Of a DNA stretch of 64,000 nt, positions 19,591-61,002 are shown one piece after another. Source of the stretch: Octopus sinensis (Eukaryota); assembly GCF_006345805.1 (NCBI RefSeq), contig NC_043017.1, forward strand, positions 28,520,001 through 28,584,000. The letters run 5' to 3'. The number at the start of each line of letters is the position of its first letter. Position 1 is the stretch's first letter. The translations under genes were made by a program, and so were the position numbers. The notes under the pieces were generated by a model. That model made no database searches, was not told the origin of the DNA, and saw nothing but the letters and a program-made list of their open reading frames with translations.

Positions 19591-19814
19591 TGTCATCGCT
19601 ATTATTTTGCGCTATATAACTATTTCTATACTAGGAGCAACATACATCTGTCCATAGCTACGGACCGACCAAAGGATTCTGAGTAGGTTTGGTCAACTAG
19701 CAGAAGACAATCGTATATAATCACACACACACACCACACACACACACACACACATGCATTATCTTGACGACTAACTAACACTCCCTCTCTGGAGTGTTAG
19801 TTAGGGTATATACC

Positions 19815-20974
19815 TATTTCTTTACTACCCACAAGGGGCTAAACACAGAGGGAACAAACAAGGACAGACAGACGGACGGATTAAGTCGATTATATCGACC
19901 CCAGTGAGTAACTGGTACTTAATTTATCGACCCCGAAAGGATGAAGGCAAAGTCGACCTCAGCGGAATTTGAACTCAGAACGTGCGGCAGACGAAATACG
20001 TATTTCTTTCTACCCCACAAGGGGCTAAACACAGAGGGGACAAACAGGACAGACAGACGGACGGATTAAGTCGATTATATCGACCCCGTGAGTAACTGGT
20101 ACTTAATTTATCGACCCCGAAAGGATGAAAGGCAAAGTCGACCTCAGCGGAATTTGAACTCAGAACGTAGCGGCAGACGAAATACGTATTTCTTTACTAC
20201 CCACAAGGGGCTAAACACAGAGGGAACAAACAAGGACAGACAGACGGACGGATTAAGTCGATTATATCGACCCCAGTGAGTAACTGGTACTTAATTTATC
20301 GACCCCGAAAGGATGAAAGGCAAAGTCGACCTCAGCGGAATTTGAACTCAGAACGTAGCGGCAGACGAAATACCTATTTCTTTACTACCCACAAGGGGCT
20401 AAACACAGAGGGAACAAACAAGGACAGACAGACGGACGGATTAAGTCGATTATATCGACCCCAGTGAGTAACTGGTACTTAATTTATCGACCCCGAAAGG
20501 ATGAAAGGCAAAGTCGACCTCAGCGGAATTTGAACTCAGAACGTAGCGGCAGACGAAATACGTATTTCTTTACTACCCACAAGGGGCTAAACACAGAGGG
20601 AACAAACAAGACAGACAGACGGACGGATTAAGTCGATTATATCGACCCCAGTGAGTAACTGTGACTTATTTATCGACCCCGAAAGGATGAAAGGCAAAGT
20701 CGACCTCAGCGGAATTTGAACTCAGAACGTAGCGGCAGACGAAATACCTATTCTTTTACCCACAAGGGGCTAAACACAGAGGGAACAAACAAGGACAGAC
20801 AGACGGACGGATTAAGTCGATTATATCGACCCCAGTGAGTAACTGGTACTTAATTTATCGACCCCGAAAGGATGAAAGGCAAAGTCGACCTCAGCGGAAT
20901 TTGAACTCAGAACGTAACGGCAGACGAAATACGGTTACGCATTTCACCCGGCGTGCTAACGTTTCTGCCAGCTC
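19815..20974 (-). mobile_element. Tandem array of Nin-domain SINE: one head plus six ~188-bp headless units
   Basis: Period 188 (identical ORFs at 20088 and 20276); head only at 20932-20974; ATACC on both flanks. Confidence 0.9.
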
Positions 20975-43072: not shown

Positions 43073-44034
43073 TATTTCTTTACTACCCACAAGGGGCTAA
43101 ACACTGAGAGGACAAACAAGGACAGACACACGGATTAAGTCGGTTATATCGACCCCAGTACGTAACTGGTACTTATTTAATCGACCCCGAAAGGATGAAA
43201 GGCAAAGTTGACCTCGGTGGATTTTGAACTACACACTGAGAGGACAAACAAGGACAGACACACGGATTAAGTCGCTTAGATCTACCCCAGTGCGTAACTG
43301 GTACTCATTTAATCGACCCCGAAAGGATGAAAGGCAAAGTCGACCTCGTCGGAATTTGAACTCAGAACGTGACGGCAGACGAAATACCTAATTCTTTACT
43401 AGCCACAAGGGGCTAAACACAGAGAAGACAAACAAGGACAAGCAAACGGATTAGGTAGATTATATCGACCCCAGTGCGTAACTGGTACTTATTTAATCGA
43501 CCCCGAAAAGATGAAAGCAAAGTCGACCTCGGTGGAATTTGAACTCAGAACGTGACGGCAGACGAAATACCTAATTCTTTACTAGCCACAAGGGGCTAAA
43601 CACAGAGAAGACAAACAAGGACAAGCAAACGGATTAGGTAGATTATATCGACCCCAGTGCGTAACTGGTACTCATTTAATCGACCCCGAAAGGATGAAAG
43701 GCAAAGTCGACCTCGTCGGAATTTGAACTCAGAACGTGACGGCAGACGAAATACCTAATTCTTTACTAGCCACAAGGGGCTAAACACAGAGAAGACAAAC
43801 AAGGACAAGCAAACGGATTAGGTAGATTATATCGACCCCAGTGCGTAACTGGTACTCTATTTAATCGACCCCGAAAGGATGAAGGCAAAGTCGACCTCGT
43901 CGGAATTTGAACTCAGAACGTAACGGCAGACGAAATACCTATTCCTTTACTACACACAAGGGGCTAAACACTGAGAGGACAAACATGGACAGACAAACGG
44001 ATTAAGTCAGTTATATCGACACCAGGGCGTAACT
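43073..44034 (-). mobile_element. Headless tandem array of Nin-domain SINE, about 5.5 units of ~184 bp
   Basis: Repeated junction GACGAAATACCTA(T/A)T; 15-bp TSD CGTACACCAATTACC / CATACAACAATTACC. Confidence 0.9.
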
Positions 44035-54510: not shown

Positions 54511-55500
54511 AGCATCTTATCAAAAATATTAATATGATATTTTGCTGCAATGTCAAACAAATAAGAATTCTCACTCAAAAAATCCATTTAAAATTTAGTT
54601 GAAACAAACACGATATAGCCCAAGGAATCTCCATATTTCAATAATTTTGCATATCATGCAAATAGTATAACCTATTTGAAATAAACTTCTAAATTTTTTT
54701 CAACGTCTTTGCTATTTTTGTTTTAACGCGTAGACCGCAGGAGAATAATGTGTTTAAACGTATCTTTGTTATAAGTAGACAATGTTTAATAGAGCGTGGC
54801 AGATACATGTGAATAGAATAAAGTTGCTCAAAAATCTAGCAATAGACATTACTATATTTATTGCCCGCAAACAATGGGGTGAAATATATAGGTTTATTTA
54901 CAATCAATAAAAAAAGAAATTCATGCAATTACAGAATAATTATTTGTGCGAAGGAGTACATGGCCAATATTTATTAAGGTTCATATTACATGAAACAAAA
55001 CAAGGTAAAAAGAGTAAAAAATAAAGCAATCTTTTGTGACTTAATGTGCATTTAAAACAGGTACTGCTTGGGACAATATAAGCAGCGATACAGAAAGACA
55101 AATTCAAAATGAAAGGAATCTTTGAATACACCGTGAATAATGAAACAGTTCTCAACATAGTTTAGGATGTCAATGCTAATATGTATAGATGTTTGCTGAA
55201 AGGTTTTCGAAACAAGTGAAAATAAAAACAAACAAAAAAAAACTAACAGAAAAAGGACAAAATAAAATATACACTGCAGAAATATCATGTAAATTCTGGT
55301 AGAGAGTGTAATTCTGTGATAGTAACCGCGCAAAGGAAATCGAGATAGAAAAATAAGATGACACAAAATTGCCGCCGGCAGTTGAAGCCATAAAACTAAA
55401 GACAGCTTCGGATGTAATAACATGATGTAAGAATACACTTCACACAAGAGGCACTGTTCTTTTAGAATATGAACCATTCTGTTTCGACATTGCAGATACC

Positions 55501-55917
55501 TATTTCTTTATTACCCACAAGGGGCTAAACACAGAGGGGACAAACAAGGACAGACATAGGTATTAAGTTGATTACATCGCGACCCCAGTGCGTAACTTGT
55601 ACTTAATTTATCGACCCCGAAAGGATGAAAGGCAAAGTCGACCTCGGCGGAATTTGAACTCGGAACGTAACGCAGACGAAATACCCATTTCTTTATTACC
55701 CACAAGGGGCTAAACATAGAAGGGACAAACAAGGACAGACATAGGTATTAAGTCAATTACATCGACCCCAGTGCGTAACTGGTACTTAATTTATCGACCC
55801 CGAAAGGATGAAAGGTAAAGTCGACCTCGGCGGAATTTGAACTCAGAACGTAACGGCAGACGAAATACCGCTAAGCATTTCGCCCGGCGTGCTAACGTTT
55901 CTGCCAGCTCGCCGCCT
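55501..55917 (-). mobile_element. Nin-domain SINE dimer (head plus two units)
   Basis: Perfect 14-bp TSD ACATTGCAGATACC at 55487-55500 and 55918-55931. Confidence 0.92.
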
Positions 55918-56162
55918 ACATTGCAGATACCACTTATGAAATAGTTCTTCTAAGGTTTTGGAAGAACCATTGTGTTTAGCTATATGGTAAGTGTTATACA
56001 TTACAGATGTTACATTATACGATTGTTTCGCAGGGAAATTTCTAAATGCAACCAATCGACGTATCAGAGTAATACGAAAGGAAGATGTAAGGGAATAAAT
56101 GAAGATTCTGGGGTTCATTGGTGTGTTAAACACGACCATATTCAGGTTCTTGGTGGTGATAT

Positions 56163-56730
56163 CTCTCTTGCCCAGGATATCAATCGTCTGGAAGCTGTTC
56201 AGCGACGTGCAACCAAAAGAATACCCTCCATCAGGCATTTGCCATATCCTGAACGCCTTACTTCCCTGGACATGGACACATTGAAACTCCGACGTCTGGC
56301 AGCTGACTTGGCAGACACCCATAAAATTATCAACCATCTTACAAACAATAACTCTAAGCACCTTTTCAAACACCACCTGTCTAACACCCGTGGACATGTT
56401 TACAAAGTCAGAAAACAGCACAGCTCCCATGACTTCAGGAAACATTTTTTCACGATGAGAGTTGCTGAAGCATGGAACAAATTGCCGGCATCAGTTGTTA
56501 GTTGTCGGAGCACTGCATCCTTCAAAACTTCCATGCTTCCTGAGATTCGCCAAAACTACACTTGATTTTCTCTCCTCCATACACACACAAGCATGTATCT
56601 GACTCGTACATTGTTCGCTTTCCAGACATTTCTACATTACTGCATGTACTTTATATGCACTTTCTGAAAAGTTGTGGTGCACCTGAGCACTGTATACAAT
56701 AATTTCATTATCATTATTATTATTATTATT
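56163..56730 (+). mobile_element. CR1-like LINE 3' end (ORF2 C-terminus, 3' UTR, (ATT)n tail)
   Basis: DINRLEAVQRRATKRIP..LPYPERL..TLKLRR..DL..HKII..RVAEAWNKLP. Confidence 0.9.
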
Positions 56731-57012
56731 TGGAGATGGATAGTTACAATCATAAACGTTTGTATTACCGAAAACCAAAACGTGTAAAATGGTCAATGCA
56801 ATCGTGTGCATAATCGGCTCAACTACATCAACTCTTTACTCTTTTACATGTTTCAGTCATTTGACTGCGGCCAAGCTAAGTGACGGGGACGTAAACACAC
56901 GAGCATCGGTTGTCAAGCAATGCTAGGGGTACACAAACACATACATATATATATATATATACGACAGAATGATGTTCGTGTCAATATACAGATAGACATA
57001 TATATCGCATAT

Positions 57013-57222
57013 ACTCTTTTACTTTTTTCAGTCATTTGACTGCGGCCATGCTAGATCACCGCCTTTAGTAGAGCAAATCGACCCCGGGACTTATTCCTAG
57101 TAAGCCCAGTACTTATTCTATCGGTCTCTTTTGCCGAACCGCTAAGTGACGGGGACGTAAACACACCAGCATCGGTTGTCAAGCAATGCTAGGGGTACAA
57201 ACACAGACACACAAACACATAC

Positions 57223-57262
<40 letters not shown>

Positions 57263-57410
57263 GACAGGCTTCTTTCAGTTTCCGTCTACCAAATCCACTC
57301 ACAAGGCATTGGTCGGCCCGGGGCTATAGCAGAAGACACTTGCCCAAGATGCCACGCAGTAGGACTGAATCCGGAACCATGTGGTTGGTTAGCAAGCCAC
57401 TCCTGCGCCT
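57013..57410 (-). mobile_element. CORE-like SINE (partial neighbours at 56830-56965 and 57550-57790)
   Basis: Homologous to 11827-12275. Confidence 0.88.
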
Positions 57411-58057
57411 ATACACACATTACCTGAAGTCTTTTGGGAAGGAGCTAGAATATTATATCGACCCCAGGGCTGAAGAATGAAAGGCAAAACTCGACGGAAT
57501 TTTAATTCAGAACCTAAATATACACAAAATGCAGCAAGGAAGTTTCACGTACTCTTTTACTCTTTTACTAGTTTCAGTAATTTGACTGTGGCCATGCTGG
57601 AGCACCGCCTTTAGTCGAGCAAATCGCCCCCAAGACCTATTCTTTGTAAGCCTAGTTCTAATTCTATCGGTCTCTTTCGCCGAACCGCTAAGTTACGGGA
57701 ATGGAAATATACCAGCATCGGTTGGGGGGGGGGCAAACAGAGACACGCAAACATATGCACACACACTTATATATATATATATATATATATGGTGGCTGCC
57801 CCCTCGTTATCGAGTGTGGCCATTGCACGAAGCTTGATCAATGTTGTTATCGTGCAATGCTTGTGCAAGACGATTTTTTTAAAGTGAGGAAAGGCTGTGC
57901 ACTGAGTCAATCTCACTCACTAAGCAACACCAGCCATAATCCGAAAAGAAGAACAAGTCAACATCATCGGTAACCACTCAGCCGCAGGTTTTATGTGGAA
58001 GTTATCCCAGTTACCTGGGTTACATTCTCCTAGAAGGATGCCCTTCTAAACTTACAA

Positions 58058-58092
<35 letters not shown>

Positions 58093-58318
58093 GAAATATT
58101 AAAATAACTAAGTCTCTCTAAAAGAGAACAGCGGCAGCGTTCCCGGAAAATAATAGTTATCGCCATACTAATATGGCATTCTTATAAAAAATAATAAAAA
58201 AACTGTCCGCTTATTAGCTCCATGAGGCCATCGCCTTAAGTTAGCTATTGATACACAAACTGTATCCATATAACCTTCGAACAAGGGAGGTCAGTCGCTC
58301 CACACTACTTGACCGGCA

Positions 58319-58360
58319 GCTACAGACGCGTTTCGGGGTATTGCCCCTTTTCAATGCAGC
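58319..58360 (-). ncRNA. Minimal type I hammerhead, U3-A8 core variant (inverted copy)
   Basis: Reverse complement of 58857-58898. Confidence 0.75.
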
Positions 58361-58856
58361 GTAGCCAGCCAGTAGGTGTCGCTTCCGACAATCTCTGTTC
58401 GATGGTTTTATTTACCTAGTTTCGGTGGAATACATCCACTTGTTTTCAATAATAGAAATATTAAAATAACTAAGTCTCTCTAAAAGAGAACAGCGGCAGC
58501 GTTCCCGGAAAATAATAGTTATCGCCATACTAATATGGCATTCTTATAAAAATAAGAAAAAAACTGTCCCTTGTTCGAAGGTTATATGGATACAGTTTGT
58601 GTATCAAATAGCTAACTTAAGGCGATGGCCTCATGGAGCTAATAAGCGGACAGTTTTTTTCTTATTTTTATAAGAATGCCATATTAGTATGGCGATAACT
58701 ATTATTTTCCGGGAATGCTGCCGCTGTTCTCTTTTAGAGAGACTTAGTTATTTTAATATTTCTATTATTGAAAACAAGTGGATGTATTCCACCGAAACTA
58801 GATAAATAAAACCATCGAACAGAGATTGTCGGAAGCGACACCTACTGGCTGGCTAC

Positions 58857-58898
58857 GCTGCATTGAAAAGGGGCAATACCCCGAAACGCGTCTGTAGC
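58857..58898 (+). ncRNA. Minimal type I hammerhead, U3-A8 core variant
   Basis: GCTGCA-TTGAAAA-GGGG-caata-CCCC-GAAA-CGCG-TC-TGTAGC; palindromic ACGCGT stem III. Confidence 0.75.
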
Positions 58899-59069
58899 TG
58901 CCGGTCAAGTAGTGTGGAGCGACTGACCTCCCTTGTTCGAAGGTTATATGGATACAGTTTGTGTATCAAATAGCTAACTTAAGGCGATGGCCTCATGGAG
59001 CTAATAAGCGGACAGTTTTTTTATTATTTTTATAAGAATGCCATATTAGTATGGCGATAACTATCATTA

Positions 59070-59100
<31 letters not shown>

Positions 59101-59127
59101 AATATATATATATATATACACATATAT

Positions 59128-59290
59128 ACGACGGGCTTCTATCAGTTTCGGTCTACCAAATCCACTCACGAGGCTTTGGTCAGCCCGAGGCTATAGTAGA
59201 AGACACTTGCCGAAGGTGCCACGCAGCGGGACTGAATCCGGAACCATGTGACTCGTAAGCAAGCTACTTACCACACTGCCACTCCTACTT
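59128..59290 (-). mobile_element. CORE-like SINE 5' half
   Basis: Head region; its 3' half is probably 57550-57790, separated by insertions into the internal (TA)n. Confidence 0.75.
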
Positions 59291-59780
59291 ATCACACAGC
59301 CATTCTACATGTTGACGATTCTGCCAGCTAAACACCTTACAATACACAGGAGTGCAATTTTGAACATAATTTCTGTTGAGTTTCTGTTACATATCATTTA
59401 GGCTAAAACCAGAATTCTGATTTCGAAATTACAGTCGGTTTTCTTACATCAAGTCAATTGTTTTCTGTACAGCTCGATGGATTAAATGCCGATTTTGTCT
59501 GGTGTGCTAACGACCCTGTCTGGTCACGGCCGTAAAATTCGGCGCTTGTAACAAAATCCGAAAATGAACCAACTGTAGTTGGGAATTACCGATTCATTGT
59601 AAGTTTAGATATTTTAAAGAAATAATTGCCAAATGTCGTTTCTGCAAAAGAATACAACCCGCACTTTAAAATTGGCAATGGAGTAAATTTCGTTGCTCTG
59701 GTTGCATCATCTGTCTCTTGTCTACATTAATATGGATCTCGTGAGCACATATTAATGACAATAAAGAAAAATTCGTATAC

Positions 59781-59967
59781 AGGCGCAGGAGTGGCTGTGT
59801 GGTAAGTAGCTTGCTAACCAGCCACTTGGTTCCGGATTCAGTCCCACTGCGTGGCAACTTGGGCAAGTGTCTTCTGCTATAGCCCCGGGCCAATCAATGC
59901 CTTGTGAGTGGATTTGGTAGACGGAAACTGAAAGAAGCCTGTCGTATATATGTGTATATATGTGTAT

Positions 59968-60009
<42 letters not shown>

Positions 60010-60237
60010 ATGTATGAGTTTGTGTGTCTGTCTTTGTCCCCCTAGCATTGCTTGACAACCGATGCTGGTCTGTTTATGTCCCCGTCACTTAGCGGTTCGG
60101 CAAAAGAGACCGATAGAATAAGTACTGGGCTTAGAAAGAATAAGTCCCGGGGTCGATTTGCTCGACTAAAGGTGGTGCTCCAGCATGACCGCAGTCAAAT
60201 GACTGAAACAAGTAAAAGAGTAAGGAGTAAAAGAGTA
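59781..60237 (+). mobile_element. CORE-like SINE, full length
   Basis: Homologous to 11827-12275. Confidence 0.9.
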
Positions 60238-60603
60238 TGATATAGAGTATTAGTAGACGTTTTGGTATGATTTCCAGCATAATTGGTCATTACTCTCAAG
60301 CCTTCAAACGAATTATATGGAGAATCAGTATATTTTATTATAATAATTTGAACGAGTACATGATATAAACACCACTAAATGTAAGATAGTATCCAAAGAA
60401 AGTTAAAAAGTATATGAAAATATATCAATTATCCGTTTGACGGAGACGAAACGGAAATCATCTTAAGGTTGTCTAATGTTGATTATGCGAACAGTATTTC
60501 ACGTCGAGAGCCGAGAATCACCTTAAGTTTCTTAAGACAAACACTGAGACATTAAATCCGTAAGCTATTGACATATAGTGTTTACCTTCCTTTTATATAT
60601 TTA

Positions 60604-61002
60604 CTAGCAGTATCGCCCGGCGTTGCTCGGGTTTGAAAGGGAAATAACTATATAAGCATTTTTAGAGACGTAAAGTATAATAGCCATCTCAATATGGCTA
60701 ACCACAAAGGTGGGTGGGGGGGGTTACTGTAGCGTTTTACGTTCTGAGATTTAATAATAAATTTTTAGAGAGTTACTTCCCTTATATATGCCAAAAATGC
60801 ATTAAAAATGGGAAAAATTGATGGTAAATTTTTGTTTTAATCGTAGACTCATCGTAGACACGCGCTAATACCCAGAAGGGCTCGATATGAATCACAACTA
60901 TAAGATACCAGGTTTTGGTTAAACTGCACCGCAAAATGTGGGAGTAGTTAGGAATCTAAATCGTAGGAGACAGACACACAACTTCACTTTTATATATAAA
61001 GA
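60604..61002 (-). mobile_element. Non-autonomous Helitron (H1)
   Basis: Reverse-complement homolog of 15277-15669. Confidence 0.85.

What the first reader, a model, noticed from the sequence alone, without database searches (positions are those of the whole stretch)
58088..59063. Young 362-nt ribozyme retroelement with a compensatory U3-A8 hammerhead core and circularly permuted arms
Seen: two divergent arms, each longer than one 362-bp unit and starting at different points of it, nearly identical to each other, with no ORF, in (TA)n. Each arm has a minimal hammerhead whose core reads UUGAAAA instead of CUGANGA, so the C3-G8 pair is replaced by U3-A8; standard motif scans would miss it. A second vestigial fold (TTGAAAA..GTGGA/TCCAC..GAAACTAG) lies ~90 nt upstream. 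Established: the 3-8 Watson-Crick pair tolerates covariation, and minimal palindromic hammerheads cleave as dimers in PLEs and non-LTR retrozymes that yield circRNAs. Inference: a recently active cephalopod retrozyme-like family copied from a circular or multimeric RNA by a PLE RT. With the other families here, this suggests a diverse TA-targeted ribozyme-element system.
Basis: partly seen in the sequence, partly recalled or inferred. Interest (0 to 1): 0.8.

Follow-up and report, generated by a model that had tools for sequence, protein, structure and literature searches.

The report
Hammerhead retrozyme hosting a site-specific LINE
A young 362-base jumping repeat with a predicted self-cutting RNA motif sits in this genome as pairs of back-to-back arms, likely copied by the enzyme of Penelope-type retrotransposons, and a second jumping gene inserts almost only at one spot inside it; the repeat is of a known kind, and the nested parasite is the newer part.

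Summary
In detail: two head-to-head arms (483 and 502 nt) of a 362-nt non-coding unit lie in (TA)n, each with a U3-A8 type I hammerhead (1,005 exact copies in G000; stems covary across subfamilies). The arms are not freely permuted. Inner ends vary, outer ends fall at two fixed sites 62 nt apart, and 52 of 52 clean two-armed insertions use one of each. That is the Penelope-like (PLE) 'tail', two reverse-transcription starts. So this is a non-LTR retrozyme, a non-autonomous PLE. That class, the U3-A8 core and the inverted-arm layout are all published, and autonomous PLEs in G000 share them. No partner PLE with matching sequence was found. Cleavage and circular RNA are untested. Unexpected: an L1-group (likely Tx1) LINE inserts 16 nt upstream of the hammerhead core (42 of 45 copies; 37 of 42 full-length; 17-nt duplication). 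Two diverged sister copies sit after base 17 of U1 snRNA genes. It may borrow the host's transcript and hammerheads (untested). The scan noted Tx1 LINEs targeting Penelope ends in two other genomes; my searches found no paper on it. New variant of a known kind; interest 0.5.

The parts
58061..58089 (.). (TA)n target tract, left flank
   Evidence: 120 of 133 fixed outer ends of the family abut TA alternation
58087..58569 (-). left arm, u82 to u202; outer end is the long (tail-bearing) end
58087..58148 (-). 62-nt tail (u141-u202) between the two inferred reverse-transcription start sites
   Evidence: interpretation from PMC11167929
58319..58360 (-). type I hammerhead, U3-A8 core, left arm
58370..58386 (-). 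empty LINE target site (u265-u281), left arm
58416..58449 (-). second, degenerate hammerhead-like fold, left arm
   Evidence: GAAA box lost in sibling family B
58567..58569 (.). head-to-head junction, 3-nt overlap of the two 5'-truncated arms
58567..59068 (+). right arm, u1 to u140 of the second unit; outer end is the short end
58567..58928 (+). one 362-nt unit (u1-u362), non-coding
58768..58801 (+). second, degenerate hammerhead-like fold; its core starts at u202, the long end
58831..58847 (+). empty LINE target site (u265-u281), duplicated on LINE insertion in other copies
58857..58898 (+). type I hammerhead: helix I 58857-62/58893-98, core 58863-69 (U3-A8), helix II, palindromic helix III, predicted cut after 58892 (u326)
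59070..59128 (.). (TA)n target tract, right flank

Best explanation
This is one insertion of a young, non-coding 362-nt hammerhead repeat family (a non-LTR retrozyme) that is likely copied into (TA)n by the reverse transcriptase-endonuclease of a Penelope-like element, and whose predicted hammerhead likely cuts multimeric transcripts as a dimer. Inferred cycle: tandem copies are transcribed; pairs of hammerheads cut at u326; unit and multi-unit RNAs are likely re-ligated into circles; a PLE protein, predicted to be a dimer, nicks both strands of an AT-rich target; each 3' end primes internally on the same RNA, one at about u140 and one at about u202; both copies run back through the ribozyme site for a variable distance; the two truncated copies are joined head to head by 0-7 nt of overlap. 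Shown by sequence: unit, copy number, fixed paired ends, shared variants between arms, TA targeting, covariation. Also shown: a separate L1-group LINE inserts at one site of the unit, in the same orientation, and leaves the hammerhead intact.
For: Copy number and youth: 1,005 exact 39-nt hammerhead matches, 170 more with a helix II variant, 40 best hits 99-100%. Architecture: of 84 insertion groups in 81 loci, 58 were two-armed; 52 had both outer ends at the fixed sites and all 52 paired one short with one long end; 11 of 11 more in the variant subfamily (13 loci). This matches the PLE tail and inverted 5'-truncated copy (PMC8557442, PMC3846280 passages) and the two internal RT starts shown in vitro for an anole PLE that cuts and extends both strands (PMC11167929). 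Four autonomous RT+GIY-YIG families in G000 end in (TA)n with 35-40 nt tails and hammerhead-like motifs, three with U3-A8. Same template for both arms: 78 concordant against 5 discordant calls at 12 subfamily sites. Hammerhead selection: nine subfamily representatives give 6 of 18 pairs with double changes, 95.7% of cells paired, 0 of 500 shuffles as high for covariation score, slid controls at most 50% paired; helix III is a perfect A-N4-T palindrome in three different sequences; two copies co-fold as the dimeric hammerhead, -34.7 against 2 x -14.3 kcal/mol. Arms read through the cut site: 74 of 114 exceed one unit, longest 3,569 nt.
Against: No autonomous PLE among the loci sampled shares sequence with the unit, so the partner is unidentified; the tail is 62 nt, not the usual 30-40. 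The nine rows are related and hand-picked, so the shuffle control overstates. The pairing rule has exceptions: 3 long+long insertions among 30 loci of sibling family B (query biased to long ends) and one in L203. Some arrays repeat variants every 2 or 4 units, and in the window and in L324 a variant matches by rank in both arms; such templates were at least dimers, or copies were altered after insertion, so a monomer circle does not explain all. In the anole PLE, hammerhead cleavage was not needed for insertion in vitro, and 8 of 9 Xenopus retrozyme dimers did not cleave.
Confidence: 0.85

Rival explanations
1. Same element and same PLE enzyme, but the template is the uncut linear multimeric transcript; the hammerhead is slow or acts at another step and no circle is involved.
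For: Unprocessed RNA was the main substrate for the anole PLE. Rank-matched and 2- or 4-unit periodic variants fit heterogeneous multimers. Inner ends show no clear pile-up at the cut site: 6 of 114 at u322-332 against 3.5 expected.
Against: A non-coding unit keeps the fold with compensatory changes across subfamilies about 80% alike. Truncation on linear templates would shorten arrays each round, yet 10-unit arms exist. Multimeric circles would give the same periodicities, and related retrozymes are found as circles (PMC7229834).
Confidence: 0.4
2. The arms are terminal-repeat stumps of an autonomous PLE that my sampling missed, not a separate non-autonomous family.
For: PLE insertions are mostly 5'-truncated; only 150 of 5,029 GIY-YIG candidates and 111 of 10,449 RT candidates were scored.
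Against: Arms are tandem units up to 10 long with no other sequence; the only long insert found inside an arm was the LINE. Ten further single-arm loci read about 9 kb upstream showed no arm joined to a PLE frame.
Confidence: 0.08
3. The embedded LINE is the mobilising partner, or LINE plus unit form one composite element.
For: LINE and unit are found together in 42 of 45 LINE copies; one array has the LINE in 5 of 5 complete sites.
Against: About 45 LINE copies against more than 1,100 units; most insertions carry no LINE. The 17-nt duplication follows the local allele of the target. The five copies in the C3 array fall into at least two LINE sublineages shared with unlinked loci. The two-start, head-to-head layout is that of the local PLEs.
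Confidence: 0.04
4. An assembly artefact or DNA-level fold-back duplication of an ordinary satellite.
For: Inverted repeats in TA tracts are hard to assemble; copies carry many small indels.
Against: The two arms end at different fixed sites and have different lengths in 52 insertions; target duplications are visible at non-TA sites (L167, L179, L141); the fold covaries.
Confidence: 0.02

Closest known systems
Non-LTR retrozymes of animals (PMC7229834, parts 2-4 of 6 read; bioRxiv 10.64898/2026.07.22.740005, parts 1-3 of 5 read)
   Same: Non-coding tandem units of 150-450 nt with a type I hammerhead; mussel units are 350-390 bp; coexistence with PLEs; proposed PLE mobilisation.
   Different: U3-A8 core; described here as dispersed two-armed insertions with two fixed RT starts rather than plain tandems; no matching pLTR found, whereas 21 of 57 Xenopus families match PLE ends; expression and cleavage untested here.
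EN+ Penelope-like elements: partial tandem, inverted 5'-truncated copy, tail (PMC8557442 and PMC3846280, passages; PMC11167929, main text)
   Same: Head-to-head arms, tail at one end, AT-rich or (TA)n targets, hammerhead upstream of the 3' end, short target duplications where visible.
   Different: No ORF; tail 62 nt instead of 30-40; the one-short-one-long pairing is quantified here (52 of 52), where the papers say 'optional' or 'often only at one end'.
U3-A8 hammerheads of Cercyon PLEs in Schistosoma mansoni (PMC4209133, parts 1-2 of 4 read)
   Same: Same core covariation (about 1,300 hits there); pairs of motifs 100-700 bp apart on opposite strands also noted there.
   Different: Here helix sizes are canonical and copies are nearly identical; it sits in a non-autonomous unit.
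Tx1-clade site-specific LINEs: Tx1L into Tx1D, Keno into U2 snRNA, Tx1-Mar into a Mariner (PMC4494074, passages and section 15)
   Same: APE + RT LINE of the L1 group that inserts at one site of another repeat or small-RNA gene.
   Different: Target is a hammerhead retrozyme, 16 nt upstream of the core; sister copies are in U1 snRNA genes; almost all copies are full-length with one 5' junction. Tx1 membership not tested by phylogeny.
R2 elements in 28S rDNA (PMC3774820, abstract only)
   Same: Uniform 5' junctions arise when the element RNA keeps upstream target sequence after ribozyme cleavage of a co-transcript; this is the model proposed here for the LINE.
   Different: R2 carries its own HDV-like ribozyme; here the ribozyme would be the host repeat's.

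Membership tests
non-LTR retrozyme | tandem non-coding units of a few hundred nt, each with a type I hammerhead | tested here: met
   362-nt period, longest frame 67 codons, arrays to 10 units
non-LTR retrozyme | autonomous PLEs in the same genome | tested here: met
   RT+GIY-YIG frames of 775-784 aa
non-LTR retrozyme | self-cleavage of the RNA | not testable with these tools
   only folding and covariation
non-LTR retrozyme | unit-length linear and circular RNA in vivo | not testable with these tools
   only assembled contigs of runs not on record as RNA were available
type I hammerhead | core boxes with a 3-8 Watson-Crick pair, GAAA and UH triplet | tested here: met
   U3-A8, invariant in nine subfamily representatives
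type I hammerhead | helices I-III supported by covariation | tested here: met
   6 of 18 pairs with double changes, all four helices involved; rows related
type I hammerhead | loop 1-loop 2 tertiary contact | not tested
   no model built
PLE-type insertion | inverted 5'-truncated copy joined head to head | tested here: met
   58 of 84 insertion groups two-armed
PLE-type insertion | tail at one end (two RT starts) | tested here: met
   52 of 52 short+long; tail longer than usual
PLE-type insertion | microsatellite or AT-rich target | tested here: met
   120 of 133 ends
autonomous PLE | RT + GIY-YIG ORF between pLTRs | tested here: not met
   no ORF in the unit or arms
non-autonomous derivative of a named PLE | sequence shared with the pLTR of an autonomous family | tested here: inconclusive
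   none in the sampled PLE loci; sampling covers a small share of candidates
L1 group LINE (embedded element) | ORF1 plus APE-RT-zinc-finger ORF2, closest to L1 | tested here: met
   PF03372, PF00078, PF13966; intact 512 and 1,140 codon frames in L203; best solved match human L1 ORF2p, E 1e-66
Tx1 clade (embedded element) | RT phylogeny within Tx1 | not tested
   no named Tx1 reference among hits
Tx1 clade (embedded element) | sequence-specific target in a multicopy sequence | tested here: met
   42 of 45 3' ends at u265-281

The most novel reading that the evidence does not exclude
The LINE is a ribozyme-borrowing hyperparasite: it has moved from U1 snRNA genes to the retrozyme, is co-transcribed with it, and is cut out by the host's flanking hammerheads as a 5.7-kb RNA carrying target sequence at both ends. 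That would explain its exact site, its single 5' junction and its near-total lack of truncation. The retrozyme's strict one-short-one-long ends would further show that a PLE dimer primes both target strands on one RNA at two set sites.
Probability: 0.3. Interest if true: 0.75.

Novelty: new variant of a known kind. Interest (0 to 1): 0.5.

Why it matters
How PLEs build their tandem and inverted insertions is an open question. A 362-nt non-coding substrate with hundreds of near-identical insertions gives a clean rule (one start site per target strand, both arms from one template lineage) that a purified PLE protein can test. The embedded LINE adds a three-level system: PLE enzyme, retrozyme, site-specific LINE. 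Its close relatives use a different target (U1 snRNA), which makes it a natural case of an APE endonuclease changing target, and possibly of one element using another's ribozyme.

Tried and rejected
Rfam scan of 56,000-61,000: no hammerhead family matched; all 24 hits were below gathering scores. Expression: no RNA holder listed (14 holders only guessed to be RNA). Contigs of 4 such runs cover the unit and one contig wraps round the 362 period, but contigs cannot separate circle, tandem and DNA, so I draw nothing from it. Partner search: GIY-YIG family search, RT search and 90 PLE stretches (30 search loci and 60 fetched, partly overlapping) gave no unit homology beyond nested insertions of sibling families. 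A loose end led only to an old single-arm copy. L148 looked like an autonomous partner and proved to be a LINE insertion. Composite copying of LINE plus unit: rejected on sublineage mixing in the C3 array and on L296. Carry-over of downstream hammerhead sequence by the LINE: the helix II variant seen after several LINE copies is a subfamily of 170 matches, present in LINE-free units too. Protein searches gave no clade name for the LINE. The second fold as an active ribozyme: rejected for poor helix I and loss of GAAA in family B. Literature searches for a Tx1 or LINE that targets a hammerhead or Penelope repeat, for Tx1 with U1 and for octopus hammerheads found no description; Repbase, Dfam, subscription journals and all supplements were not seen and may hold one.

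Full report
Observation. The stretch 58087-59068 holds two arms of a 362-nt unit (unit position u1 = 58567). The left arm reads u82 to u202 on the minus strand (483 nt), the right arm u1 to u140 on the plus strand (502 nt); they overlap by 3 nt at the centre and end in (TA)n. There is no coding frame. Each arm has a type I hammerhead with core UUGAAAA, helix I of 6 bp extended by a further stem, helix II of 4 bp and a self-complementary helix III, predicted to cut after u326. Rfam does not detect it. A second, degenerate fold starts at u202.

Family. G000 has 1,005 exact matches to the 39-nt hammerhead, 1,083 to a relaxed pattern and 170 to a helix II variant. The 40 best DNA hits are 99-100% identical. 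A sibling family B is about 80% alike, period 360, 2,658 candidates, copies 95-98% alike, and older single copies exist. Across nine hand-picked representatives the core is invariant, 6 of 18 pairs change on both sides, and helix III takes three different perfect palindromes. Two copies co-fold as the dimeric hammerhead. The fold is therefore under selection; activity is not shown.

Architecture. I mapped 81 loci, 28 picked by DNA score and 53 by position on two chromosomes. Of 84 groups, 58 were two-armed, always head to head, and 26 single. Outer ends fall at about u136-143 (short) or u197-204 (long). All 52 two-armed groups with both ends at these sites had one of each; six had one end elsewhere. 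Eleven of 11 clean cases among 13 further loci agreed. Exceptions: three long+long cases among 30 family B loci and L203. Inner ends vary; 74 of 114 arms exceed one unit and the longest is 3,569 nt; junction overlaps are mostly 0-7 nt. Of 133 fixed ends 120 abut TA alternation; at non-TA sites short target duplications are visible. The two arms agree at subfamily sites 78 times and disagree 5 times, so they come from one template lineage. Some arrays repeat variants every 2 or 4 units, and in the window (u95) and L324 a variant matches by rank in both arms, which points to multimeric templates or later conversion.

Mechanism. These are the marks of Penelope-like elements: an inverted 5'-truncated copy and a tail at one end (PMC8557442 and PMC3846280, passages). 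For an anole PLE the tail is the stretch between two internal RT starts, both target strands are cut and extended, and the protein is predicted to be a dimer (PMC11167929, main text). G000 holds at least four autonomous RT+GIY-YIG families with frames up to 775-784 aa in three of them, (TA)n ends, 35-40 nt tails and hammerhead-like motifs, three with U3-A8. None of the sampled ones shares sequence with the unit, so the partner is inferred from layout only. I read the element as a non-autonomous PLE passenger whose two arms are primed at u140 and u202, one per strand. I put circular templates at about 0.6 and uncut linear multimers at about 0.4.

Comparison. Tandem hammerhead repeats of this size are the non-LTR retrozymes, expressed as circles in coral, mussel and axolotl (PMC7229834, parts 2-4) and argued to be non-autonomous PLEs (bioRxiv 10.64898/2026.07.22.740005, parts 1-3). 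The U3-A8 core and opposite-strand pairs of motifs are in PMC4209133 (parts 1-2). An octopus repeat annotation lists young Penelope and L1-Tx1 families and does not mention ribozymes in its main text (PMC13282606, passages). Supplements were not seen.

The embedded LINE. Several arms shared a non-unit flank. It is a 5.34-kb LINE with APE, RT and zinc-finger domains, intact in L203 (512 and 1,140 codons), closest to human L1 ORF2p among solved structures; Tx1 clade is inferred, not tested. All 30 loci of a 3'-end search were at one site. With wider flanks, 42 of 45 copies have the 3' end at u265, two truncated copies lie elsewhere and one has a foreign 3' flank but an on-target 5' end; 37 of 42 readable 5' ends start at LINE base 1-3 directly after u281 or after the duplication left by a preceding copy (three 5' ends fall in assembly gaps). 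Some unplaced contigs may be allelic to placed loci (L300). An exact 3'-end pattern gives 36 matches and a separate 5'-end search returns nearly the same set, so the family is about 45 copies and the full-length excess is not a query effect. The 17-nt duplication follows the local allele and the LINE sits in at least four unit subfamilies; the five copies in one array belong to at least two sublineages. These are independent, targeted insertions, 16 nt upstream of the hammerhead core, in sense, with the hammerhead kept whole. Two diverged copies instead follow the first 17 bases of U1 snRNA genes (gene identity by Rfam on a neighbouring copy). Tx1 elements are known to target transposons and snRNA genes (PMC4494074); my searches found none on hammerhead or Penelope repeats, but the scan's own notes report Tx1 LINEs at Penelope ends in two other genomes. 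By analogy with R2, where upstream target sequence left on the RNA gives uniform 5' junctions (PMC3774820, abstract), the LINE may be cut from a retrozyme co-transcript by the host's hammerheads. That step is inference only.

Verdict. The feature is real. The element is a new family of a known kind, and its headline oddities are published. The strict paired-start rule and the site-specific LINE with a U1-targeting sister are the added value. Novelty: new variant of a known kind. Interest 0.5.

Noticed in passing
L396 (G000:C15:29010136) and L398 (G000:C6502:254559): Diverged copies of the LINE (89% at the 5' end) follow base 17 of U1 snRNA genes; one lies in a U1 cluster at C15:28.98-29.18 Mb.
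   Followed up: partly
G000:C3:72,500,800-72,529,900 (L246-L249): A two-armed retrozyme insertion with the LINE in 5 of 5 complete sites, from at least two sublineages: a local hot spot.
   Followed up: partly
unit positions u1-u17 (window 58567-58583): Inner (5') ends of arms are enriched here: 20 of 114 against about 5 expected; this strand pairs with u240-257 at the base of a long predicted rod, so it may be an RT stop or a transcription start.
   Followed up: partly
L154, L143, L002, L144: Long arrays repeat variants every 4 or 2 units or in blocks: multimeric templates, later duplication or assembly effects.
   Followed up: no
L091, L098, L108, L355 and relatives: Four autonomous PLE families with RT+GIY-YIG frames, an upstream ORF in three, (TA)n targets and 35-40 nt tails; three have U3-A8 hammerheads, one has a C3-G8 core that reads CCGAAGA in the youngest copies.
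   Followed up: partly
L349:1100-1900: A further distant sibling of the unit, two-armed, whose hammerhead core reads UUGACGA (U3-G8 wobble).
   Followed up: no
L184:9498: A relative of the L108-type PLE end with C3-G8 instead of U3-A8 and the same helix III: natural covariation of the 3-8 pair within one genome.
   Followed up: no
window 19810-20933, 43097-44034, 55496-55869: A second dispersed tandem family of 183-188 nt (2-6 units, 93-96% matches); no hammerhead found by my scans.
   Followed up: no
window 57012-57401, 57558-57724, 59102-59286, 59787-60200: Several copies of a SINE-like repeat next to TA tracts on both sides of the element; family name not determined.
   Followed up: no
L166, L169, L174, L191, L063, L078: Fragments of other, more distant PLE lineages (23-45% identity to the young families) near or in TA tracts; not checked as partners.
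   Followed up: no
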